The position numbers and the translations under genes were made by a program. Positions 123 to 64,000 of a stretch of DNA of 64,000 nt are shown here, piece after piece (position 1 is the first letter of the stretch; each line of letters starts with the position of its first letter). The notes beneath the pieces were generated by a model. It did not search any database and was not told where the DNA came from. It was given only the letters and a program-made list of their open reading frames with translations. Source of the stretch: an uncultured Chloroflexia bacterium (GTDB lineage Bacteria; Chloroflexota; Anaerolineae; J036; Brachytrichaceae); assembly GCA_963764985.1 (NCBI GenBank), contig CAVXUI010000005.1, positions 145,569 to 209,568 on the forward strand, written 5' to 3'.

Positions 123-1363
<1,241 letters not shown>

Positions 1364-1450
1364 GAATTCAGAATCCAGAGTCCAGAATCCAGGCATGCGC
1401 ACGCGGCACTGGCTCTTCTTTCTGGATTCTGGATTCTGGACTCTGGACTC
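1364..1450. repeat. Hairpin element with arms made of 7-nt GARTCCA units (copy 1)
   Basis: Left arm GAATTCA GAATCCA GAGTCCA GAATCCA (1364-1391). 31-nt loop. Right arm TGGATTC x2 plus TGGACTC x2 (1423-1450). Starts directly after the rhaI TAA and ends 5 nt before ATG 1456. Confidence 0.85.
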
Positions 1451-1455
1451 TACCC

Positions 1456-3508
1456 ATGCCTACCAACCTCTGGAACCCAAAATCCGCTTCCGGCCTTTCC
1501 GGTCTCGACCTGCTCGTGTATCGCTCGAATCTGCTGGGAGCGGATCGCAGCGTCTGCAATATTTTTGGCGGCAATACCGGCAGCAAGGTCGACGCGGTCG
1601 ATTTTCGCGGCCGACCAGCGCGCGTACTGTGGGTCAAAGGCAGCGGCAGCGATCTGGCCACCATGCGCGCAAAAGATTTCGCCGGCCTGCGCATGGAAGA
1701 CATTGAGCCGCTCTTTGAGCGCGACGCCATGACGGACGAGGAAATGGTCGCGTATTTGACGCAGTGTCTGAACGGCGCAAATATGCCGCGTCAGAGCATT
1801 GAGACGTTGCTGCACGCGTTTGTGCCCGCCGCGCACACCGACCACACCCACCCCGACGCGGTGATTTCGCTGGCCTGTTCAAAGAACGGCAAAAAGTGGA
1901 TGCGCGAGGTGTATGGCAAGCGTGCGGCCTGGGTCGATTACATCCGGCCCGGGTTTACGCTCAGCAAAGAGATCGGCCAGGCCGTGCGCAGCAACCCGCA
2001 GATCGAATGCGTGGTCATGGGCAAACACGGCCTGGTGACCTGGTCCGACGACCCCAAAACCTGCTACGACAACTCAATCCGCATCATCGGCGAGGCCGAG
2101 GCGTTCATCGCCCACAAGGCGCAGGGCAAGAAGGTGTTTGGCGCACCAAAAGCAGCACTGAAAGACAGGTACAGCGATTGCCGAAAGCATCCTGCCGACC
2201 CTGCGCGGCGCGGTCAGTGCTCACGGTTGCAGCGTGGTCAAGTTTGACAACAGTCCGGCCGTGATGGCCCTGGTCAACGGCGCAAACGCGGCCAAACTCG
2301 CGGCGGTCGGCGCGGCCTGCCCCGATCATCTGGTGCATACCAAACGCGTGCCGCTGTTTATCGACTGGAACGGCAAAGATGCCGCCCAGCTCAAGACCGC
2401 GATCGTCGACGGCGTCAAGAAATATCAGGAAGACTACGCGGCCTATTTCAAGGCGCATGCAGCAGAGGGCGACAAGATGTTCCACCCGGCCCCGCGCGTG
2501 ATCCTGATTCGTGGCGTCGGCATGTTCACCACCGGCAAAGACGCCGCGCTGGCCGGTGTCAGCAACCAGCTGTATCAGCGCGCGATCGCGGTGATGGCTG
2601 GCGCAACCGCGCTCGACACCTTCACGTCGCTCAGCGCTGCCGAGGCCTTTGCGATCGAGTACTGGCCGCTTGAACTTTACAAACTCGCGCAGCGCCCGCC
2701 CGATCGCGAGCTGGCCGGGCGCGTGGCGTTTATTACCGGCGGCGCCAGCGGCATCGGCCGCGCCACAGCCTATCGCCTGGCGCAGGACGGCGCGCATGTC
2801 GTCATCGCCGATCTTAATGGCCCGGGCGCACAGACCGTGGCCGATGACATCGTCAAGCGGTTTGGCGCCGATCGCGCGCGCGCCGTGGTGTGCGATGTCA
2901 CCGTCGAGGCGCAAGTGCAGGCTGCGCTCAACGTGGCTGTGCAGGCCTATGGCGGGCTGGATATCGTGGTGAACAACGCCGGGCTGGCCAGCAGCAATCC
3001 GGTCACCGAGGTCACCACCGCCGAGTGGGACAAGCTTTTTGCCGTGCTCGGGCGCGGCTACTTCATGGTTGCGCGCGAGGCCTTTCGCATCATGCAGCAG
3101 CAGGCTCTCGGCGGCAGCATCATCTTTGTGGCCAGCAAAAACGGCCTGATCGGCAGCAAAAACGCCTCGGCATACGGCGCGGCCAAAGCCGCCGAGATCA
3201 ACTTGGCGCGTTGCTTGGCTGAGGAAGGCGGCGCACTTGGCATCCGCGTCAACACCGTCTGCCCGGATGCGGTGCTGACCGGCAGCGCGATCTGGAGTTC
3301 CGACTGGAAGGAAGCGCGCGCCAAGAGCATGGGCATCCGCGTCGATCAGCTCGAAGACGCCTACCGCCAGCGCAACACGCTCAAAGTCAGCATCTATCCG
3401 GAAGACATCGCCGAGACGATCTCGTTCTTCGCCGGCGACCGTTCATCCAAAACCACCGGCTCAGTTGTCACGGTCGATGGCGGCGTGACGGCCGCGTATG
3501 TGAGATAA
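1456..3508 (+). CDS. rhaEW: Bifunctional rhamnulose-1-phosphate aldolase / short-chain dehydrogenase; one frame break near 2170-2240
   Basis: ORFs 1456-2247 and 2234-3508. The N-terminal part resembles a class II aldolase/adducin domain. The C-terminal part is an SDR (AFITGGASGIGRATAYRLAQDGAHVVIADL, NNAGLAS, SKNASAYGAAKAA). About 684 aa in total, as expected for the fusion. It lies between rhaI and rhaB. Confidence 0.8.
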
Positions 3509-3587
3509 GAATCCAGAGTCCAGAGTCCAGAATCCAGACATGACCGCTGTGACACGGTCTCATGTCTGGATTCTGGATTCTGGATTC
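3509..3587. repeat. Hairpin element with arms made of 7-nt GARTCCA units (copy 2)
   Basis: GAATCCA GAGTCCA GAGTCCA GAATCCA (3509-3536), inner stem GACATGA/TCATGTC, then TGGATTC x3 (3567-3587). Abuts the rhaEW TAA (3506-3508). Tail TTTACTCTGT runs into ATG 3598. Confidence 0.85.
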
Positions 3588-3597
3588 TTTACTCTGT

Positions 3598-5004
3598 ATG
3601 ACTAAATCCATTGCCCTCGCCGCCATCGATCTCGGGGCTGAAAGCGGCCGCGTGATGCTGGCAAAGTTTGACGGCGCAAAGATTCAGCTCGAGGAAGCGT
3701 TTCGCTTTCCAAATGTGCCGGTGCAGGCGGGCGACACGCTGCACTGGGATATTCTGCGGCTGTTTGGCGATATCAAGACCGGGCTTGCCGCCGCGGCGCG
3801 GCTTGCAAACGGCTCGCTGGCCGGCGTCGGTGTCGACACCTGGGGCGTCGATTTTGCGCTGCTCGACGCGCAGGACAAGCTCATTGGCAACCCGGTCCAT
3901 TACCGCGACGCGCGCACAAACGGCATGGCCGAACAGGTCTATGCGCGCGTGCCGTGGCGCGATATTTTCAATCGCACCGGCATCCAGTTTTTGCAGTTCA
4001 ACACGCTGTTTCAACTGGCGGCCATGCGCTTTGGCAATGCGCCCGCGCTGGACCATGCCCGCTCACTGCTCACGGTTCCAGATTTGCTGAACTTCTGGCT
4101 GTGCGGTGTCAAAGCCAACGAATACACAAATGCCACAACCACGCAGCTGATCGACGCGCGCACGCGCGCATGGTCGCCCGAGTTGATCGGCGCGCTCGAT
4201 TTGCCGGCGCGTCTGTTCGAACAGCCGCTGGCGCCGCCGTGCAGTGTGCTGGGCGAAGTGCGGCCGGAGATCAAACAGGCTATGGGCGTGAGCACGCTGC
4301 CGCTGCTCTTACCGTCGACGCACGACACCGGCTCGGCCGTGGTCGGCGCGCCGCTAAGCGGCGCGCGCGATCTGTATCTGAGCAGCGGCACCTGGTCGCT
4401 GATGGGCTTCGAGTCGCCCGAGCCGATCATCAACGACACCGCGCTGGCCCACAACGTCACGAACGAAGGCGGCGTCAATGGCACCGTGCGCGTGCTCAAG
4501 AACATCATGGGCTTGTGGCTGCTGCAGGAATGCCGGCGCAATTGGGCCAAGCAAGGCCGCGACTATACCTACGAGCAGCTTGAAGCGCTGACACGCGCCG
4601 CGTCCACCCGCGCGCGCATCGCGTGCGGCGACGCGCGCTTTTTGCCGCCCGGCGACATGCCCGGCCGCATTCGCGCGTATTGCCTGGAGACCGGGCAAAC
4701 GCCACCCGAAACCGACGGCGAGATCGCGCGCTGCGTGATCGAGAGCCTGGCACAGGAATATGCCGATGTCGCCGCGAAGTTCGACGACCTGGCCGGCCAC
4801 CGCCACGAGACGATTCACGTCATCGGCGGCGGCTCGCAAAACGCGTTGCTGAACGAGCTGACTGCGCAGACCACAGGCCGGCGCGTGGTGGCCGGGCCAG
4901 TGGAGGCCACCGCGCTGGGCAACGTGATTGCGCAGTTGGTGGCGCTGGGCGAGTTGTCATCGTGCGCAGACGGGCGTGCGATTGTGCGAGCCACAGGCGC
5001 GTAG
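3598..5004 (+). CDS. rhaB: Rhamnulokinase (FGGY carbohydrate kinase)
   Basis: ORF 3562-5004. The first 12 codons translate the hairpin arm, so the likely start is ATG 3598 (MTKSIALAAIDLGAESGRV). FGGY-type motifs DTWGVDFALLD and HVIGGGSQNALLNELTAQ. Rhamnose gene context. Confidence 0.8.
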   Translation: MTKSIALAAIDLGAESGRVMLAKFDGAKIQLEEAFRFPNVPVQAGDTLHWDILRLFGDIKTGLAAAARLANGSLAGVGVDTWGVDFALLDAQDKLIGNPVHYRDARTNGMAEQVYARVPWRDIFNRTGIQFLQFNTLFQLAAMRFGNAPALDHARSLLTVPDLLNFWLCGVKANEYTNATTTQLIDARTRAWSPELIGALDLPARLFEQPLAPPCSVLGEVRPEIKQAMGVSTLPLLLPSTHDTGSAVVGAPLSGARDLYLSSGTWSLMGFESPEPIINDTALAHNVTNEGGVNGTVRVLKNIMGLWLLQECRRNWAKQGRDYTYEQLEALTRAASTRARIACGDARFLPPGDMPGRIRAYCLETGQTPPETDGEIARCVIESLAQEYADVAAKFDDLAGHRHETIHVIGGGSQNALLNELTAQTTGRRVVAGPVEATALGNVIAQLVALGELSSCADGRAIVRATGA

Positions 5005-5025: not shown

Positions 5026-5099
5026 GAAGAAGAAGAAGCCACAGATTTCACAGATTGGATAACAACGCAATCTGTGAAATCTGTGGCTTCTTCTTCTTC
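5026..5099. repeat. Perfect 32-bp hairpin (possible bidirectional terminator) between convergent rhaB and iolD
   Basis: GAAGAAGAAGAAGCCACAGATTTCACAGATTG (5026-5057), 10-nt loop, exact reverse complement at 5068-5099. The arm contains (GAA)4 plus two CACAGATTK units. Confidence 0.8.
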
Positions 5100-13724: not shown

Positions 13725-13736
13725 GGACCGATGAGA

Positions 13737-13821
13737 AGGTTAGCCACAGAGGTCACGGAGGAACGGAGTAAGACCAATCGCTTTTTTTCTCCGTGTCCTC
13801 TGTGACCTCTGTGGCTAACCT
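13737..13821. repeat. Long imperfect hairpin (arms of about 32 nt) with CACAGAGGT-type units
   Basis: Left arm AGGTTAGCCACAGAGGTCACGGAGGAACGGAG (13737-13768). Right arm CTCCGTGTCCTCTGTGACCTCTGTGGCTAACCT (13789-13821). One mismatch and one bulge. Confidence 0.8.
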
Positions 13822-13892
13822 ACTTCCTGACAGTTGCTGACAGATTTGACAAAATACTTGAATTCATCGGCTAGATTCTTACACTGACGTGC

Positions 13893-26025: not shown

Positions 26026-26074
26026 GGCGAAATTGCCATATCCCTCGCGGCGCGAGGGATATGGCAATTTCGCC
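26026..26074. repeat. 24-bp hairpin, ATATCCC family (copy 1)
   Basis: GGCGAAATTGCCATATCCCTCGCG (26026-26049) and its exact complement (26051-26074). Lies downstream of queG and upstream of the S8 protease (both on the minus strand). Confidence 0.8.
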
Positions 26075-27208: not shown

Positions 27209-27289
27209 GTGCTTAAAGTGCTTAAAGTGCTTAAAGTGCTTAAAGTGCTTAAAGTGCTTAAAGTGCTTAAAGTGCTTAAAGTGCTTAAA
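27209..27289. repeat. Tandem array of nine perfect copies of the 9-nt unit GTGCTTAAA
   Basis: 81 nt, counted directly. Preceded by GGGAAGAAAAG, which abuts the queG start codon (27195-27197 on the minus strand). No inverted partner arm is nearby. Confidence 0.95.
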
Positions 27290-27400
27290 GTCTAACGGGT
27301 TGTGTCGCGCCGTGTCAATGCAATCACCTGCTCTTAAGTGACATGGTAAGTGATGCATCCAGAGTTGAGCGAACAGCCACGCGTGACACGCTCGACGTGT

Positions 27401-30132: not shown

Positions 30133-30179
30133 GGCGATTTCGCATATCCCCCGCAAAGCGGGGGATATGCGAAATCGCC
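30133..30179. repeat. 22-bp hairpin, ATATCCC family (copy 2), between convergent glcE and NUDIX genes
   Basis: GGCGATTTCGCATATCCCCCGC, loop AAA, then GCGGGGGATATGCGAAATCGCC. Related in sequence to the arm at 26026-26049. Confidence 0.8.
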
Positions 30180-39449: not shown

Positions 39450-39955
39450 ATGCGCAGACATGTTTTCGCCACGTTTCTGTTGATCGCTTCTTGCGATCAC
39501 CGAGCGGCCATGCTGCCGACGATGCTCGGCGGTCTGCCGCGCCCGAACCTGGTGCTGGTCGCCGCCTCATCCTGGGCGGCCATGCGCCGCAACGAAGGGT
39601 TTGTCTGGGCGCTCGGGCGGCGGTGTGCTGCTTGATTTGCTTTCGAGTGCGCCGTTTGGCTCGCACACCGTGGGCCTGGTGCTTGGCAATCTCGTCGCGC
39701 TTGCGCTCGATCGATTCCCGATGCCGCTGCCATTTTTTCGCGTCACCAACTGGGTTGCGTTTACAACGCTGGTTTTTCACCTGGTGTTGCTGCTGGCGTT
39801 GATCGCTAGCCGGCCGCCGCTTTGACTTCGGGCTCGCGCTTTCAACCACCGTTCTGCCGTTGCTGGCGATCAACCCAGTGCTGTCGTTGCTGGCGTTTGT
39901 CTTTCTGGCGCCGGTGCAGAATCAGTTGAATGAGCAGGAGCGGTTTGCGAAATAG
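39450..39955 (+). CDS. mreD: Rod shape-determining protein MreD; about 2 frame breaks
   Basis: Hydrophobic ORF pieces 39450-39635 and 39601-25 (GGVLLDLLSSAPFGSHTVGLVLG), plus a final piece ending ..NEQERFAK with TAG at 39953-39955. The call rests mainly on its position after mreC. Confidence 0.6.
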
Positions 39956-40052
39956 AAGTACTTAATAAAGTGCTTAAGGTGCTTGAAGTGTTACGGTGCT
40001 GAGCAATGCCTGAAGCACTTTAGGCACCTCAAGCACTTTTAAGCACCTTCTC
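39954..40052. repeat. Imperfect hairpin built from 9-nt GTGCTTAAR-like units
   Basis: Left arm AGAAGTACTTAATAAAGTGCTTAAGGTGCTTGAAGTG. Right arm CACTTTAGGCACCTCAAGCACTTTTAAGCACCTTCT. About 80% complementary. Begins inside the mreD TAG and ends 28 nt before the mrdA ATG. Confidence 0.75.
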
Positions 40053-43821: not shown

Positions 43822-43833
43822 ATTTTACAGACA

Positions 43834-43920
43834 GGGAAGAAGGTGCATAAAGTGCATAAGGTGCTTAAGGTTGAGCGCCGCAACCTTAAGCACCTTATGC
43901 ACTTTATGCACCTTCTTCCC
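43834..43920. repeat. Perfect 40-bp hairpin built from GTGCWTAAR units
   Basis: GGGAAGAAG GTGCATAAA GTGCATAAG GTGCTTAAG GTTG (43834-43873), 7-nt loop, exact complement at 43881-43920. Lies 12 nt from the GNAT ATG (minus strand) and 54 nt from the LCP ATG (plus strand). Confidence 0.9.
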
Positions 43921-43974
43921 TGCGTCCACCCAAAGTAGGAGGCACGTTGCCACACTGCGTGTTTTAATTGGAGT

Positions 43975-59480: not shown

Positions 59481-60410
59481 TCAGCGCAGCGCCGGCAGGG
59501 CGCGCTCATAGAACGCAGTCACACGCGCCAGGTAGTCGATCGGCACCTCGCGATAGGCGCCGCCGTGGTCGGCATCGGCAACCTCCCACACCGTCGCGCC
59601 GGGCAGTGCCTGTTGCAGCGCGCGCGCTTGCTCAAGCGGCACGAGCAAATCATCGAGCCCCTGTATCAGCATCACCCGCTGCGCCGCGATTTTTGCAGCA
59701 TCGACCACCGGACGCGCAGCCCAGTAGTCCACGCCGGATTGGCGTTGCGCCAGCAGCAGGCCGGGAAAATGCAGCTGTCCGGGCGTGCGAGTCAGGCGCG
59801 TCCATTGAAAGCGCGCCGCACCGACAACGTCCGAAAACGCCGAATCCGAGACAACGGCGCCAATTCCCGCGTCATCGGCCATCGCGCCGAGCACAGCCGC
59901 ACCGCCAAGCGACACGCCGTGCAGTCCGATCTGCGGCCGCTTGAACCCGCGCGTTTCGAGCCAATCGACGGCTCCAAGCACATCACGCCGTTCATGGATG
60001 CCAAAGCTGACAAACGCATCTGCGCTTTTGCCATGCCCCCGCAGATCGATCATCATGACTGCAAAGCCCGCGTTGTGCAGGCCGGCCGCGAACTCGACAT
60101 AGCGGCCAAAAAACTCGTCGGTGCGGCTGCCGTCTTTGCCATGCACCAGCACAATTGCGCGTCGCGCGCCGACTTTTGGCATATACCAACCGGCCAGCTT
60201 CAGGTTGTCGCCGCGCGAAGAAAATGTCACGTCTTCGAAGTCAATCGGCCCGCGCCACGAATATGTGCGCGGTGTCATCGATGCTTGAAACACCCGGCGC
60301 GGCCGCAGAAAATAGACATACGCCAGCGCGTTCAACAACACATACGTGATCAGCACTTGCACCGTCAACCAGATCAACACGGGCCGCGCGAGGCACCAGA
60401 GAAGTTTCAT
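59481..60410 (-). CDS. Alpha/beta hydrolase with an N-terminal TM anchor
   Basis: N-terminal hydrophobic segment, HGKDGSR, elbow HGVSLGGA, C-terminal DADHG. Directly abuts the next gene. Confidence 0.65.
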   Translation of the reverse strand: MKLLWCLARPVLIWLTVQVLITYVLLNALAYVYFLRPRRVFQASMTPRTYSWRGPIDFEDVTFSSRGDNLKLAGWYMPKVGARRAIVLVHGKDGSRTDEFFGRYVEFAAGLHNAGFAVMMIDLRGHGKSADAFVSFGIHERRDVLGAVDWLETRGFKRPQIGLHGVSLGGAAVLGAMADDAGIGAVVSDSAFSDVVGAARFQWTRLTRTPGQLHFPGLLLAQRQSGVDYWAARPVVDAAKIAAQRVMLIQGLDDLLVPLEQARALQQALPGATVWEVADADHGGAYREVPIDYLARVTAFYERALPALR

Positions 60411-60524
60411 TGCGCCAGTATCGCCCGGAGACCGGAGATCTCGGGCTAACCATCACAATGGCGGCGTGCCGCCGGGCGGAGGGCAGGCGCAGTGGTTAGC
60501 CGCCGACAGGCGGCTTCGCTAGGG

Positions 60525-61910
60525 TTAGCGCGGGACCTCGGTCCCGAGTTCGCGCGCGCGCAGCGCCAGCCCAGCCGCCACGCCCGTAAACAAATCCTGC
60601 TGCACCACGCGATCTGCGCCAAAGCGTTTGACGAGCATGTCGACAAAACACGGGATCGCGGACGAACCCCCGGTGCGCACGACGGCGTCGATCTGATCCG
60701 CGCGCGTGCCTGCGCGCAACAGCACGTCATCGATCAATTCGCCGATCTGGCGGCGCTCCTGCGCGATAAAGGCCTCGAAGTTGCGGCGCGTCAGGGGATG
60801 CCAGATGTCAATCGCGCCGGATTCGTATTCAATAAACGAGACGTTGGCTTGCGTAAGCCCGACCTTGGCCTGTTCGACGCGTTCGTAGACGTCGTAGCCA
60901 TAGCCCTTCCCGATCAGTTCCTCGAGCGCGAGCAGCCGGATCGGGTCGTCACAGTCTTGCTGTGCCTCGCGCAGAAAGCCAAGGATATCGGCATTGCTGA
61001 GCATCGGGATGTTTTGCCAGTCGCCGAGTGCGTCCATCAGGTGGGTCGGCATGGTCATGCGGCCGGGTCCCCAGCGCACATCGCGGCCAAACCACGGCAG
61101 CAGCGCGCGGTTGAAGATGGCCTGGTCGAAGTGATCGCCAGCGATGCCGATGCCGCCGGTCGCGACCACATGCTGGGCGCCGTTGGCGTCAAACCGAACC
61201 ACGGCCAGATCGAGCGTGCCGCCGCCGAAGTCGAATACAAATGCATGCCGGGTTTGTTGCGCGCGCGCTTCAAGGCCAAACGCCAGCGCCGCACCGATCG
61301 GTTCCATCTCAAACGCGACCTCGGTAAACCCGGCCAGCCGCGCCGCTTCAGCCAGTCGCGCCTGCGCGCGCTCGTTGTCGGCCGCGTTTGCGACATTGGC
61401 GAAGTTGACCGGCCTGCCAAAAACAGCCGCGGTTGGCGCACGCCCCAACTCAGTGCCTATGCGAAAACGAACCTGGTCGAGAAAGGCGGCGATCAGGTCT
61501 TCGAGCGAGTAGTCTTTGCCAAAGAGCGATGTGCCGGCATACGTTGTCGCGAGCGGCCCCTTGAGCGTGTGCAGCAGCCGGCCGGGCGCATCGGCATCGA
61601 CATCGGTAAACACGTCGACGATCACCGCCCCACCCTTCAGGTCGTACCCCTTCGCCAGCAACTCGCCCAGCTCAAGATCGATCGTGCCGATGTATTTCTT
61701 GACAAAGCGAGGCACCCGCCCGACGTTCTGCTTGCGATACAACGAGATTGCCTGCCGGCCGATGTGCAGCGTCTGATCGCGTTCGACATACAACGCCGTG
61801 CGCAGCGTGTCGCGGCCGTCGTCCAGCGGCAAAATGCGCGGACGCGCGTCGCCCGCGCCAATTACAGCGGCGACGGTGTTTGTGGTGCCGAAGTCAATGC
61901 CTAAGAACAT
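60525..61910 (-). CDS. YegD-like Hsp70-family ATPase (actin-fold, no substrate-binding domain)
   Basis: ATG 61910 (MFLGIDFGTTNT). GRPVNF..ERAQARLAEAARLAGFTEVAFEMEPIGAAL, FDFGGGTLDLAVV, VRTGGSSAIP. About 461 aa, with the same architecture as E. coli YegD as I recall it. Confidence 0.75.
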   Translation of the reverse strand: MFLGIDFGTTNTVAAVIGAGDARPRILPLDDGRDTLRTALYVERDQTLHIGRQAISLYRKQNVGRVPRFVKKYIGTIDLELGELLAKGYDLKGGAVIVDVFTDVDADAPGRLLHTLKGPLATTYAGTSLFGKDYSLEDLIAAFLDQVRFRIGTELGRAPTAAVFGRPVNFANVANAADNERAQARLAEAARLAGFTEVAFEMEPIGAALAFGLEARAQQTRHAFVFDFGGGTLDLAVVRFDANGAQHVVATGGIGIAGDHFDQAIFNRALLPWFGRDVRWGPGRMTMPTHLMDALGDWQNIPMLSNADILGFLREAQQDCDDPIRLLALEELIGKGYGYDVYERVEQAKVGLTQANVSFIEYESGAIDIWHPLTRRNFEAFIAQERRQIGELIDDVLLRAGTRADQIDAVVRTGGSSAIPCFVDMLVKRFGADRVVQQDLFTGVAAGLALRARELGTEVPR

Positions 61911-61922
61911 GGGGAGAGTAAA

Positions 61923-62022
61923 GAATCTAGAATCCAGAATCCAGACATGAAGCATGCCCGCGGTTAGTCGTCTGAGTGATGAATGTCGGACGCATGTCTG
62001 GATTTGGATTTTCTGGATTCTT
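61923..62022. repeat. Hairpin element with arms made of 7-nt GARTCCA units (copy 3, more degenerate)
   Basis: GAATCTA GAATCCA GAATCCA GACATG (61923-61949) ... CATGTC TGGATTT GGATTTTC TGGATTC (61993-62020). In gene (minus) orientation it reads TGA-AGAATCCAG...GATTCTTTACTCTCCCC-ATG. Confidence 0.85.
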
Positions 62023-63146
62023 CACAAAAACATCGCCGCCGCGACACGCGCACCCACCACATTCAGCGGCCGCGCCTCGGACGGCTTGGCCGCGATGGGC
62101 AGGCTGCGGGTGGTGCTGACGACGAGGTCGCCAGTCATGGTGAGCATGAGCGTGGCCGTGGTTTGGCTTTGCAGCGCGCACGTCAGTGCGACAAAGTTCT
62201 TGATGAGCGGTTGCGATTTTGCGCCGGGCTTTTTGTGCGCTGGCAGGCCGGCGGTGGCGACCACGAATTGCGCACCGTCCGCGCCGACAAATTGCACCGC
62301 GTCATCGGCATTGATGCTGGGCAGAATGAGGGCGGCGACCACATCGTCGTCCTGCTCACGCGACACGCAAAACGCGCCGGACGATTCGACCAGCTTCAAC
62401 GGAAAGCGCACCCAGCGCCCGAGCCGCGTCAGCAGCAGCAGATCTTCCGCACCGCCGTCGGACGCACCCAGCCAGACCGGCGCGTCGGTGTGCTCACCCG
62501 GCGTAATCTGCTGACCCGACGCCAGCATATTCTCGACCACGCCCCAGGGCAGCGCCCGGCACCAGCCCTGTCGCGTCACCACGACCAGCTGTGCCGGCGG
62601 CGCAAACTCGTCGACAACGCAGACGGCTTCGACTTGCTCCAGCTTCATCAATCCGAGCGCGCTGGCGCGGGCGGCGTCCTGCCAATCCATGCGCGCGCTG
62701 AGACGAATGCCGAGCCCGTTGAGCGACACCAGCCGGAAGGTCGACGTCATCGCCAGCAAGCCACCCAGCCGCGTAGTCGCGGCCATATACAGCGGGCGCA
62801 GCTCGCGCACGCCGCGGTCTTCGGCCGTGACGAGTTTGAGCGTCTGATCCATTGACGCCACGCCGGGCAGCAGCAGCGCGTCGCCGGTACCGGTCAGCAG
62901 CGCCAGCACATCACCATCCAGATTGCGTTTGCGCGCATACAGCCGCAGGTCGCGCAGATCGTTGCGGGCGCGGCTGAGCTGGGCCGGCGACGCGCCGCTG
63001 CCGCTGCGTTTGAGAAACGCAGTCTCGGCGCGCAGCGCGTCGCTGTTGCGCTGCAGCGTCTGCGTGCGCGCGTGCAGCTCGGCGATCAGCAGGTGCGCGG
63101 CCGCCAGATCCGGCGCGGCCTCGAGCAATTCTTCAAGCGTGACCAT
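62022..63146 (-). CDS. Hypothetical protein with an N-terminal coiled coil and a GyrA-C-terminal-like beta-pinwheel repeat region
   Basis: Intact 374 aa. Helical N-terminus (LLIAELHARTQTLQRNSDALRAETAFLKR). Blade-like segments follow: QLVVVTRQGWCRALPWG, LLLLTRLGRWVRFPL, VQFVGADGAQFVVAT, LMLTMTGDLVVSTT. The fold assignment comes from pattern recognition only. Confidence 0.4.
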   Translation of the reverse strand: MVTLEELLEAAPDLAAAHLLIAELHARTQTLQRNSDALRAETAFLKRSGSGASPAQLSRARNDLRDLRLYARKRNLDGDVLALLTGTGDALLLPGVASMDQTLKLVTAEDRGVRELRPLYMAATTRLGGLLAMTSTFRLVSLNGLGIRLSARMDWQDAARASALGLMKLEQVEAVCVVDEFAPPAQLVVVTRQGWCRALPWGVVENMLASGQQITPGEHTDAPVWLGASDGGAEDLLLLTRLGRWVRFPLKLVESSGAFCVSREQDDDVVAALILPSINADDAVQFVGADGAQFVVATAGLPAHKKPGAKSQPLIKNFVALTCALQSQTTATLMLTMTGDLVVSTTRSLPIAAKPSEARPLNVVGARVAAAMFL

Positions 63147-63152
63147 GGTGCA

Positions 63153-64000
63153 TCAAGCGGGAACAGCCGCCTCGTGCTGTGTCGGTTTGATCTCGCTCAC
63201 CGATTGGGTTTTATAGAACAGGCCACCCTTCGTGGCATAGGCGCGCGCGTTGCCGCGCGCGTCCATCAACAGCACGCGCACCCAATGATCGACGGTCACC
63301 AGCGGTTGCATCTCGCGAGTCACGTCGAAGCCGGCTGCATCGATGTCCATTCCAAAACGCAAATTCGAAATCGCGCGGCTGGCGGCGCCGGTTCTGATCG
63401 TGAGCTCGCCCAGCCCCATGCACGAGGCCGCGCCGTAACGATCATCGACATAGTTGCCCGCGCCGATGATCGGCGAATCGCCGGCCCGGCCGGGATACTT
63501 CCACGCCACACCCGAGGTGGTGACTGCGTTGACGATGTGGCCGCTCGCATCGCGCACGGTCACGTTCATGGTGTCGCTGCTCTCGCGCATCGTAAAGGCG
63601 CGATTGGTTAACTCTATCAGCGCCGCGCGCGGTGCGTTGGCATCCTGCAGGATGTCGATGTCGGCATCGGACAGCCCAAGTGCGCGCATGCGGGCGATCC
63701 AGATCGTGTGCGCCTTATCGGTCAGCATCACGCGCCGTTCTGCGCCAATCTCTTCGCCAAAGCGCTCCGCGCCCGCGCCGACCAGCAGCACATGCGGGAG
63801 CTGTTCCATCACCGCGCGCGCCAGTTGAATCGGGTGCCGAAAGTTGCGCACGCCGGCGACCGCGCCTGCGCGCAGGTGACGGCCCTCCATAAACGAAGCG
63901 TCGAGTTCGACCTCGCCGAGCAGATTGGGCAGGCCGGAGAAGCCCACGCTGGTGTCGTCGGCATCGTCTTCCACATCGCGCGCGACCTGCTCAGCCACGT
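63153..64000 (-). CDS. Asparaginase-2 / glycosylasparaginase-family Ntn hydrolase (N-terminus lies outside the window)
   Basis: GAVAGVRNFRHPIQLARAVM, DTMNVTV (autoprocessing Thr region), TTSGVAWKYPGRAGDSPIIGAGNYVD. The ORF is open to the window edge. Confidence 0.7.
   Translation of the reverse strand, partial: VAEQVARDVEDDADDTSVGFSGLPNLLGEVELDASFMEGRHLRAGAVAGVRNFRHPIQLARAVMEQLPHVLLVGAGAERFGEEIGAERRVMLTDKAHTIWIARMRALGLSDADIDILQDANAPRAALIELTNRAFTMRESSDTMNVTVRDASGHIVNAVTTSGVAWKYPGRAGDSPIIGAGNYVDDRYGAASCMGLGELTIRTGAASRAISNLRFGMDIDAAGFDVTREMQPLVTVDHWVRVLLMDARGNARAYATKGGLFYKTQSVSEIKPTQHEAAVPA

What the first reader, a model, noticed from the sequence alone, without database searches (positions are those of the whole stretch)
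61908..62024. GARTCCA element copy 3 joins the beta-pinwheel-like gene to the YegD-like Hsp70 gene, stop codon to start codon
Read on the minus strand, the order is: TGA of the 374-aa gene, AGAATCCAGAAAATCCAAATCCAGACATG, a loop, CATGTCTGGATTCTGGATTCTAGATTCTT, TACTCTCCCC, then the ATG of the Hsp70-like gene.

The other two copies lie inside the rhamnose operon. By analogy, this placement argues that the two genes are co-transcribed and functionally coupled. Otherwise the roughly 100-bp hairpin would be read as an operon boundary.
Basis: partly seen in the sequence, partly recalled or inferred. Interest (0 to 1): 0.65.

Follow-up and report, generated by a model that had tools for sequence, protein, structure and literature searches.

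The report
Heptamer-repeat hairpin between two coupled genes
A roughly 110-base palindrome built from 7-base units sits exactly between two genes that are always neighbours in related bacteria, but it is one copy of a common kind of intergenic repeat that landed in an existing gene junction, not the thing that links the genes.

Summary
On the minus strand the order is TGA (62024-62022), a 29-nt arm of AGAATCC-type heptamers, a 43-nt loop, the complementary 29-nt arm, TACTCTCCCC, then the ATG (61910-61908) of the Hsp70-fold gene. Two more copies with the same architecture lie between rhamnose-catabolism genes.

The conclusion that the two genes form a co-transcribed, coupled pair is well supported, but by synteny, not by the element. 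The GyrA-CTD-like gene is followed by the Hsp70-like gene in 8 of 8 related contexts. In two lineages the genes overlap by 4 nt.

The hairpin is absent from those closest relatives. In three other lineages the same junction holds palindromes of three unrelated families. Hairpins of this type occur in every gene context: operon-internal, operon end, convergent and divergent. They show no sense-strand RNA signature.

Inverted heptamer arrays at operon junctions have already been described in Geobacter, Xanthomonas and Nostoc, with unknown function.

Verdict: this is a dispersed intergenic palindromic repeat lodged in a tight operon junction, a new member of a known kind. Its effect on expression is untested because no RNA data exist. 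Interest is low to moderate.

The parts
62022..63146 (-). 374-aa gene: N-terminal coiled-coil-like region plus a GyrA-C-terminal-domain-like (beta-pinwheel) region. The stop TGA is at 62024-62022.
   Evidence: ORF. No Pfam hit. Faint GyrA match in NCBIfam. The profile of 19 homologues matches GyrA CTD structures, E = 1.6e-13, residues ~132-358.
61993..62021 (-). Stop-proximal (5') arm of copy 3: AGAATCCAGAAAATCCAAATCCAGACATG. This is a decayed or mis-assembled array of four AGARTCC heptamers plus AGACATG.
   Evidence: The regular form is seen in strain contigs X3/X4 and in the alignment.
61950..61992 (-). 43-nt loop, unrelated in sequence to the loops of copies 1 and 2.
61921..61949 (-). Start-proximal (3') arm of copy 3: CATGTCTGGATTCTGGATTCTAGATTCTT.
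61911..61920 (-). Tail TACTCTCCCC. TTACTCT is a degenerate fourth heptamer shared with copy 2. There is no Shine-Dalgarno sequence.
60525..61910 (-). 461-aa Hsp70-fold (nucleotide-binding domain only, YegD-like) gene, ATG at 61910-61908.
   Evidence: Pfam HSP70 1e-23. NCBIfam PRK11678 5e-43, below its cutoff. N-terminus aligned with orthologues.
63153..63998 (-). Asparaginase_2-family gene, 6 nt upstream of the 374-aa gene. Probably the first gene of the same operon.
   Evidence: In L001, L125 and L128 it overlaps the orthologous 374-aa-type gene by 4 nt.
1361..1458 (+). Copy 1: TAA, hairpin 1363-1451, ATG 1456. It lies between the rhamnose isomerase gene and the fused aldolase/dehydrogenase gene.
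   Evidence: (-47.8 kcal/mol, z = -5.8).
3506..3600 (+). Copy 2: TAA, hairpin, ATG 3598. It lies between the aldolase/dehydrogenase gene and the rhamnulokinase gene. The helix base encloses both the stop and the start codon.
   Evidence: (-60.2 kcal/mol, z = -9.5).

Best explanation
Copy 3 is one member of a dispersed family of intergenic palindromic repeats. Its arms are tandem arrays of a 7-nt unit (AGARTCC / GGAYTCT). It is REP- or STRR-like selfish or near-neutral DNA.

It lodged in the very short spacer of a pre-existing, conserved operon: asparaginase-like, then GyrA-CTD-like, then Hsp70-like. Because the ancestral spacer was only 0-15 nt, the inserted palindrome necessarily runs from stop codon to start codon.

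The downstream gene must still be transcribed by read-through. In the mRNA the element would fold into a helix of about 30 bp whose base holds the stop codon and ends 7 nt before the AUG.

Shown:
- the anatomy
- family membership
- synteny of the gene pair
- absence of the element from the closest relatives
- turnover of palindrome families at this junction
- occurrence of such hairpins in all gene contexts
- lack of strand asymmetry

Inferred:
- that it arrived by insertion or copying
- that it is read through
- that any effect on expression is a side effect, not the reason it is there. Candidate effects are hairpin-dependent mRNA processing or stability, interference with termination at the stop, and dependence of the SD-less downstream start on upstream translation.
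For: 1. Family. Three copies in 64 kb share not only the heptamers but also the non-heptamer inner stem AGACATG/CATGTCT and the tail TTACTCT. Their loops are unrelated.

2. The pair predates the element. Hsp70-like follows GyrA-CTD-like in 8 of 8 contexts. There is a 4-nt overlap in L001/L002 and L125/L126 and a 13-17 nt spacer in L127 and P0013, with no palindrome.

3. Turnover at the same junction. It holds ACGAAT-type arrays in L003, GAGTAAAT-type arrays in L004, and a GC-rich perfect palindrome in L128.

4. The genome is full of such hairpins in every context. Examples are 5026-5099 (operon end), 13734-13824 (convergent), 43832-43922 (divergent) and 39951-40048. A census of 55 array hairpins in related loci shows the same spread.

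5. No RNA-level signature. G.U pairs number 80 on the sense strand and 83 on the antisense. The sense strand is the more stable in only 6 of 28 cases.

6. No Rfam family matches.

7. Strain variants differ by indels in the arm that are not multiples of 7 and are not compensated.

8. Precedent. Inverted heptamer arrays at operon junctions are reported in G. metallireducens (proB-proA), with a different repeat at the same junction in G. sulfurreducens (PMC2700814). Inverted heptameric repeats occur in Xanthomonas, and a (single) heptameric repeat lies between pecE and pecF in Nostoc (PMC4692102).
Against: No empty site was found in a close enough relative to show an insertion event or a target-site duplication. 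Copies 1-3 are all present in the nearest strains.

No mobilising enzyme was looked for or found.

All three window copies sit in the same stop-to-start position in co-oriented junctions. That is more uniform than the census of related elements and could hint at selection or at targeting.

None of the three downstream genes has a Shine-Dalgarno sequence, so the hairpin may matter for their translation.

The census used heuristic ORF calls, and its loci were chosen by a pattern match.

The organism is unidentified.
Confidence: 0.6

Rival explanations
1. The hairpin is a functional intercistronic RNA device. The ~30-bp helix is a processing site (RNase III-like) or a stability barrier. Or its geometry, with the stop codon in the helix base and the AUG 4-8 nt after it, makes translation of the SD-less downstream gene depend on ribosomes terminating upstream: they melt the outer helix and release the start region.
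For: The stop codon lies in the helix base, and the AUG is 4-8 nt beyond it or inside it, in all three copies. None of the three downstream genes has an SD, whereas an orthologous junction without a hairpin has GGAGGG. A helix longer than 20 bp is long enough to be an RNase III substrate (own knowledge). Correia elements are bound and cleaved by RNase III (PMC2649163). Most Xanthomonas heptamer repeats are transcribed (PMC4692102).
Against: There is no sense-strand bias in G.U pairs or in stability. The element is absent from half of the orthologous junctions and is replaced by unrelated palindromes in the others. The same kind of hairpin lies between convergent and divergent genes, where this geometry has no meaning. 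Short residual spacers are what insertion into tight junctions would give anyway.
Confidence: 0.15
2. The hairpin is a transcription terminator or attenuator and marks an operon boundary. The Hsp70-like gene would then be expressed from its own promoter or only by partial read-through.
For: Hairpins of the same general type sit at genuine operon ends and between convergent genes (5026-5099 and 13734-13824). Related Acidobacteriota copies are flanked by AAAG...CTTT(T), which resembles a bidirectional terminator. Copies 2 and 3 are followed by TTT.

The second half of that condition is already not met.
Against: Only 7 nt separate the helix from the ATG. There is no promoter-like site on either strand in 60400-64000, and the terminator scan did not flag the hairpin itself. 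The stem is AU-rich with a 43-nt loop and only 3 T after it. The gene pair overlaps by 4 nt in relatives, which implies co-transcription there. Three such hairpins inside one catabolic gene cluster would silence its distal genes if they terminated efficiently.
Confidence: 0.1
3. The element acts at the DNA level, as a cluster of protein-binding or methylation sites. One option is nucleoid-protein binding (IHF/HU), as speculated for the Geobacter paired heptamer sites. Another is an array of GANTC methylation sites, since each GARTC core is a GANTC palindrome.
For: The palindromes are symmetric, with no strand bias. There are 18 GANTC sites in about 320 nt of the three elements. The arms are conserved while the loops vary, which is what one expects if the arms are what is recognised. 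The Geobacter authors proposed binding of a global regulator or IHF/HU (PMC2700814). Correia elements bind IHF (PMC2649163).
Against: A 7-bp period with no spacing is too tight for independent protein sites on B-DNA (own knowledge). Other hairpin families in the same genome and at the same junction have units without GANTC. GANTC is only mildly depleted elsewhere in the window, 130 observed against about 160 expected. No candidate protein was identified.
Confidence: 0.1

Closest known systems
Paired tandem-heptanucleotide sites of Geobacter metallireducens ('class 3 putative global regulator binding sites', consensus MTYCTGA; Aklujkar et al. 2009, PMC2700814)
   Same: Both have about five tandem heptamers on one strand facing the same array on the other strand, at a variable distance. 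Both are multicopy and intergenic. One pair lies inside an operon junction (proB-proA), and the sister species has a different repeat at that junction. This is the same turnover seen here. The reverse complement TCAGRAK overlaps the CAGAATY/CAGGAGT units of the related Acidobacteriota hairpins.
   Different: The unit register and the ends differ: AGARTCC with an AGACATG inner stem here. The Geobacter sites were only described and assigned a speculative IHF/HU role.
Heptameric simple-sequence repeats of Xanthomonas (GGGAATC) and Nostoc (GGGGAYT), and the STRR heptamers of Calothrix (Rehm et al. 2015, PMC4692102, and references there)
   Same: These are intergenic tandem heptamers. In Xanthomonas 70-75 per genome occur as convergent pairs able to form stem-loops. 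In Nostoc one (single) repeat lies between pecE and pecF inside an operon. Length varies between close species, most are transcribed, and function is unknown. The GAATC core is shared with the Xanthomonas unit.
   Different: Those repeats are G-rich and were studied as G-quadruplex formers. The units here have no G-tracts, and the copies share non-heptamer inner-stem and tail sequence, which points to copying of a whole element and not only local slippage.
REP/BIME (repetitive extragenic palindromes) of enterobacteria and pseudomonads
   Same: Both are short, dispersed, imperfect palindromes confined to intergenic DNA. Both are frequent inside operons and after stop codons, are transcribed as part of mRNAs, and have no target-site duplication. 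REPs can stabilise upstream mRNA.
   Different: REPs are 20-40 nt with a GTAG or CGTC head (PMC3733652), and their arms are not tandem arrays. Here the arms are 29-36 nt of heptamers, and no RAYT transposase was examined.
Correia repeat-enclosed elements (CREE/NEMIS) of Neisseria and other MITE-like hairpin repeats (ERIC, RUP)
   Same: Both are intergenic elements of about 100-150 bp with terminal inverted repeats, often abutting genes. They are co-transcribed and fold into long hairpins. CREE binds RNase III and IHF and alters the expression of neighbouring genes (PMC2649163).
   Different: CREE has a conserved core, 26-bp non-repetitive inverted repeats and a TA target duplication. Here the loop is not conserved, the arms are tandem heptamers, and no duplication is evident.

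Membership tests
Intergenic inverted heptamer-array repeats (Geobacter class-3 type / Xanthomonas inverted heptameric SSR type) | Arms made of at least 3 tandem copies of a 7-nt unit | tested here: met
   TRF period 7 with 3.4-4.6 copies on both arms of copies 1 and 2 and on one arm of copy 3. The other arm of copy 3 is regular in strain contigs.
Intergenic inverted heptamer-array repeats (Geobacter class-3 type / Xanthomonas inverted heptameric SSR type) | The same array in inverted orientation a short, variable distance away, able to form a stem-loop | tested here: met
   Inverted repeats with 86-100% complementarity and loops of 16-43 nt. Folds have z = -5.3 to -9.5.
Intergenic inverted heptamer-array repeats (Geobacter class-3 type / Xanthomonas inverted heptameric SSR type) | Multicopy and confined to intergenic DNA, including operon junctions | tested here: met
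   There are 3 copies in 64 kb, all between ORFs. Related copies occur in many Acidobacteriota MAG loci.
REP / BIME | 20-40 nt imperfect palindrome with a conserved GTAG or CGTC tetranucleotide at one end (PMC3733652) | tested here: not met
   The arms are 29-36 nt each, the whole element is about 90-110 nt, and the ends read TAAGAATCC...GGATTCTTTAC.
REP / BIME | Association with a RAYT (Y1 transposase) gene in the genome | not tested
   Only 64 kb of the genome is available, and the window's ORFs were not all scanned.
MITE (for example Correia/CREE) | Terminal inverted repeats and small size (50-500 bp) | tested here: met
MITE (for example Correia/CREE) | Target-site duplication flanking each copy | tested here: inconclusive
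   No consistent direct repeat flanks copies 1-3 or the related Acidobacteriota copies. A possible TA on each side of copy 2 is not reproduced in copy 3.
MITE (for example Correia/CREE) | Conserved internal core, or a parent IS element with the same ends | tested here: not met
   The loops of the three copies are unrelated. No parent element was seen in the window. A genome-wide search is not possible with these tools.
Intrinsic (factor-independent) terminator | Short G+C-rich stem, small loop, followed by a run of T | tested here: not met
   The consensus scan did not flag the hairpin. The stem is AU-rich, the loop is 43 nt, and only TTT follows.
Curated structured RNA families (Rfam 15) | Match to a covariance model at or near its gathering score | tested here: not met
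   There were 0 hits at gathering thresholds in the window. At permissive thresholds only weak matches to generic long-hairpin miRNA models appeared.

The most novel reading that the evidence does not exclude
Unit-array hairpins may be able to colonise operon junctions in many phyla because of their geometry. The fold places the upstream stop codon and the downstream start codon side by side at the helix base. Termination-reinitiation coupling would then survive a 100-600 nt insertion, or even come to depend on the hairpin once the Shine-Dalgarno sequence is lost. That would make them a general, unrecognised class of 'coupling-neutral' intercistronic elements. It would also explain why four unrelated palindrome families occupy the same junction of this gene pair.
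Probability: 0.12. Interest if true: 0.6.

Novelty: new member of a known kind. Interest (0 to 1): 0.3.

Why it matters
For annotation, a 100-nt, -43 kcal/mol hairpin between two genes should not be read as an operon boundary in this lineage. It should not be read as proof of coupling either. Synteny is the informative evidence.

The gene pair itself is a conserved module of unknown function, found here in 8 of 8 contexts, and it deserves a functional test. It consists of a protein with a coiled-coil region and a GyrA-CTD-like beta-pinwheel, followed by a YegD-like Hsp70 ATPase, often preceded by an isoaspartyl-peptidase/asparaginase-like gene.

More generally, one orthologous junction carries four unrelated palindrome families, and heptamer-array hairpins with near-identical units occur across several phyla. 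This adds a clean case to the poorly understood question of how such repeats arise, spread and are tolerated inside operons.

Tried and rejected
1. RNA-seq read-through test. Only low-depth metagenome contig runs share words with the region, and none is RNA, so it is not testable.

2. Census in the source genome. The metagenome scan with the 21-mer shared by copies 2 and 3 gave one chance hit in a 48% GC contig.

3. Exact look-up of the window's 374-aa protein found no record.

4. Taxon. Cluster members carry no organism names, and tblastn of the window's ORFs against the titled loci gave nothing close. The organism stays unidentified. The only hairpin-form matches of the 17-mer are in Acidobacteriota MAGs, which is a hint and not an assignment.

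5. A GC3-based gene caller picked antisense frames. I replaced it with a stop/start-proximity test.

6. The sense-strand RNA signature (G.U against A.C) was negative.

7. Rfam, at gathering and at permissive thresholds, found nothing relevant.

8. PADLOC search of both proteins gave no defence-system match.

9. A CsrA-type GGA-motif reading of the 3' arm was rejected: the GGA motifs are locked in the helix, and other families at the same junction lack them.

10. A leaderless-mRNA promoter (TACTCT as a -10 box) was rejected: it lies only 2-4 nt from the ATG.

11. GANTC avoidance outside the elements is only mild.
Full report
**Observation**

| Feature | Coordinates |
|---|---|
| TGA | 62024-62022 |
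| AGAATCCAGAAAATCCAAATCCAGACATG (5' arm) | 62021-61993 |
| 43-nt loop | 61992-61950 |
| CATGTCTGGATTCTGGATTCTAGATTCTT (3' arm) | 61949-61921 |
| TACTCTCCCC | 61920-61911 |
| ATG | 61910-61908 |

As RNA it folds at -43 kcal/mol, z = -5.3. The helix starts one base before the stop codon and ends 7 nt before the ATG.

The heptamer pattern is far above chance: 17 matches against 2.8 expected. The matches are concentrated in three loci.

Copies 1 (1361-1458) and 2 (3506-3600) have the same layout. A stop codon comes first, followed by four AGARTCC units and AGACATG. Then comes an unrelated loop, then CATGTCT, three GGATTCT units and a degenerate fourth unit, with the ATG 0-4 nt further on.

The shared inner stem and tail show that the copies derive from one another as whole elements. 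They did not arise only by independent local slippage.

**Quality caveat**

Contigs of near-identical strains carry copy 3 with three small insertions that restore a regular four-heptamer arm.

The same runs lack one base at 2168-2170. Deleting that base fuses two window ORFs into one 683-aa aldolase/dehydrogenase.

The window therefore contains indel errors or very recent mutations. The irregular arm of copy 3 should not be over-read.

**The genes**

- The downstream gene (60525-61910) is an Hsp70-fold ATPase without a substrate-binding domain. It matches Pfam HSP70 at 1e-23, and its best NCBIfam model is PRK11678, the YegD family, below that model's cutoff.
- The upstream 374-aa protein has no Pfam match. 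A profile of its 19 homologues matches GyrA C-terminal beta-pinwheel structures (3l6v, E = 1.6e-13, residues ~132-358) behind a coiled-coil-like N-terminus.
- Copies 1 and 2 lie between a rhamnose isomerase, a fused class II aldolase/short-chain dehydrogenase and an FGGY kinase.

**Synteny**

In all eight contexts recovered, the Hsp70-like gene directly follows the GyrA-CTD-like gene on the same strand.

| Context | Spacing | Content of spacer |
|---|---|---|
| L001/L002 and L125/L126 | 4-nt ATGA overlap | none |
| L127 | 13 nt | GGAGGG Shine-Dalgarno |
| P0013 | 17 nt | no DNA held |
| L128 | 94 nt | GC-rich perfect palindrome |
| Window | 111 nt | GARTCCA hairpin |
| L003 | 198 nt | ACGAAT-type arrays |
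| L004 | 654 nt | GAGTAAAT-type arrays |

An Asparaginase_2 gene overlaps the pair upstream in three relatives and lies 6 nt away in the window.

The functional pairing is therefore well supported, and it predates the hairpin.

**What occupies the junction**

The four long spacers each hold a palindrome, and the four palindromes belong to four unrelated families:
- AGARTCC heptamers in the window.
- ACGAAT-type units in L003; the arms pair at 20 nt, 90% complementary, fold z = -3.4.
- GAGTAAAT-type units in L004; the arms are 26 nt, 88% complementary, 597 nt apart, with further palindromes nested inside.
- A GC-rich perfect palindrome in L128 that resembles the window's own palindromes at 26026 and 30133.

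The closest relatives have no palindrome at all. This is turnover of selfish or neutral DNA at a permissive site. It is not conservation of a functional structure.

**The wider class**

The window holds many more hairpins whose arms are tandem arrays of short units. It also holds several plain perfect palindromes, about one hairpin per 4-5 kb overall. They sit in every gene context:

| Position | Context |
|---|---|
| 5026-5099 | after the last rhamnose gene, followed by ~400 nt without a long ORF |
| 13734-13824 | between convergent genes |
| 43832-43922 | between divergent genes, 11 nt from an ATG |
| 39951-40048 | upstream of a gene |

The 17-mer shared by the three copies occurs in many phyla. 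It recurs within single genomes, and in hairpin form, only in Acidobacteriota MAGs (Pyrinomonadaceae, Blastocatellia and unclassified). Its consensus there is AAAGCAGAATYCAGAATCCAGAAT, a loop, then ATTCTGGATTCTGRATTCTGCTTT.

A census of 55 array hairpins in these loci and the window again found all contexts. Helix bases typically lie 0-16 nt from a stop or a start codon. That is what insertion into short spacers would give without any special targeting.

**RNA or DNA**

If the hairpins were selected as RNA structures in the sense transcript, G.U wobbles should exceed A.C mismatches on the sense strand. They do not:
- There are 80 G.U pairs on the sense strand and 83 on the antisense.
- The sense strand is the more stable in only 6 of 28 cases.
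- The three window copies differ by less than 4 kcal/mol between strands.

No Rfam family matches. The elements behave as symmetric DNA palindromes.

**How it most likely works**

The best reading is that copy 3 is a dispersed intergenic palindromic repeat that entered, or was copied into, the tight junction of an existing operon.

Only 7 nt separate the helix from the ATG, and no promoter-like site was found. The Hsp70-like gene must therefore be transcribed by read-through, and the mRNA will carry a helix of about 30 bp from stop to start.

The likely consequences are inferred from known systems and were not tested here:
- The helix is long enough to be an RNase III substrate or a 3'-exonuclease barrier, as for Correia elements (PMC2649163) and REPs (own knowledge).
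- A stable hairpin starting at the stop codon may hinder termination of the upstream ORF, as reported for REPs within about 15 nt of stop codons in E. coli (own knowledge, not checked here).
- The SD-less start may rely on ribosomes terminating upstream, which melt the outer helix.

I rate a purpose-built regulatory role at about 0.15, a terminator or operon-boundary role at about 0.1, and a DNA-level binding or methylation role at about 0.1.

**Comparison with what is known**

Inverted arrays of tandem heptanucleotides in intergenic DNA have been described but not explained.
- G. metallireducens has eight pairs of five MTYCTGA repeats. One pair lies between proB and proA, and G. sulfurreducens has a different repeat at that junction (PMC2700814).
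- Xanthomonas has 70-75 convergent pairs of GGGAATC arrays per genome.
- Nostoc has a heptamer array between pecE and pecF.
- The Xanthomonas repeats are mostly transcribed and vary in length between species (PMC4692102).

The present element fits that kind. It fails the defining features of REP (size and GTAG/CGTC head), of Correia-type MITEs (conserved core and target duplication) and of intrinsic terminators.

**Verdict**

It is wrong in its logic, because the element is not evidence for that coupling and does not join the genes. The element is a new member of a known, functionally unexplained kind of repeat. Interest is 0.3.

Noticed in passing
window 2168-2170 (and about 1-1363): The window has one extra base relative to contigs of three independent runs. 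Deleting it fuses ORFs 1456-2247 and 2234-3508 into one 683-aa rhamnulose-1-phosphate aldolase/dehydrogenase-type ORF. The rhamnose isomerase gene upstream is also split over three frames. These are either assembly indels or recent pseudogenisation of the rhamnose cluster.
   Followed up: partly
window 27209-27291, 39951-40048, 43832-43922: There is a 9-nt unit family (GTGCTTAAA / AAGGTGCAT). It occurs once as 9.2 perfect tandem copies on one strand only, and twice as inverted arrays forming hairpins (the second with 42-nt perfectly complementary arms). This shows that arrays also expand without a partner arm.
   Followed up: partly
window 26026-26074, 30133-30179; L128 2332-2381: Plain perfect palindromes starting GGCGAAAT/GGCGATTT recur in the window. 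A similar one fills the orthologous GyrA-CTD-like/Hsp70-like junction in L128. This is a second dispersed palindrome family shared between related genomes.
   Followed up: partly
window 5026-5099 and 13734-13824: These hairpins combine a GAAGAAGAAGAAG or AGAAGG head with tandem CACAGATT or CACAGAGGT units. One lies 22 nt after the rhamnulokinase stop and the other between convergent genes. They are in terminator-like positions but have no T-run.
   Followed up: partly
window 1355-1460, 3500-3600, 61915-62030: The heptamer core GARTC is a GANTC site, the target of CcrM/HinfI-type methyltransferases. The three elements hold 18 such sites in about 320 nt. The rest of the window has 130 against about 160 expected.
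   Followed up: partly
L101 2821-2867 (-) and 2972-3017 (+): Two Acido-Lenti-1 RNA matches above the gathering score lie in inverted orientation about 100 nt apart in a Pyrinomonadaceae MAG. They are unrelated to the heptamer element.
   Followed up: no
window 60500-60515 (minus strand): A small GC-rich hairpin, GCCGCC-TGTC-GGCGGC, lies 13 nt after the stop of the Hsp70-like gene and is followed by a 114-nt spacer. It is a plausible end of the operon.
   Followed up: no
window 62022-63146 and homologues P0002-P0019: The module of a coiled-coil plus GyrA-CTD-like protein followed by a YegD-like Hsp70 ATPase is conserved in all 8 contexts. It is flanked either by an asparaginase-like gene or by ribonucleotide reductase and an M3 peptidase. 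The family is small (19 clusters), has no Pfam assignment apart from PF25566 on two members, and has no PADLOC match.
   Followed up: partly
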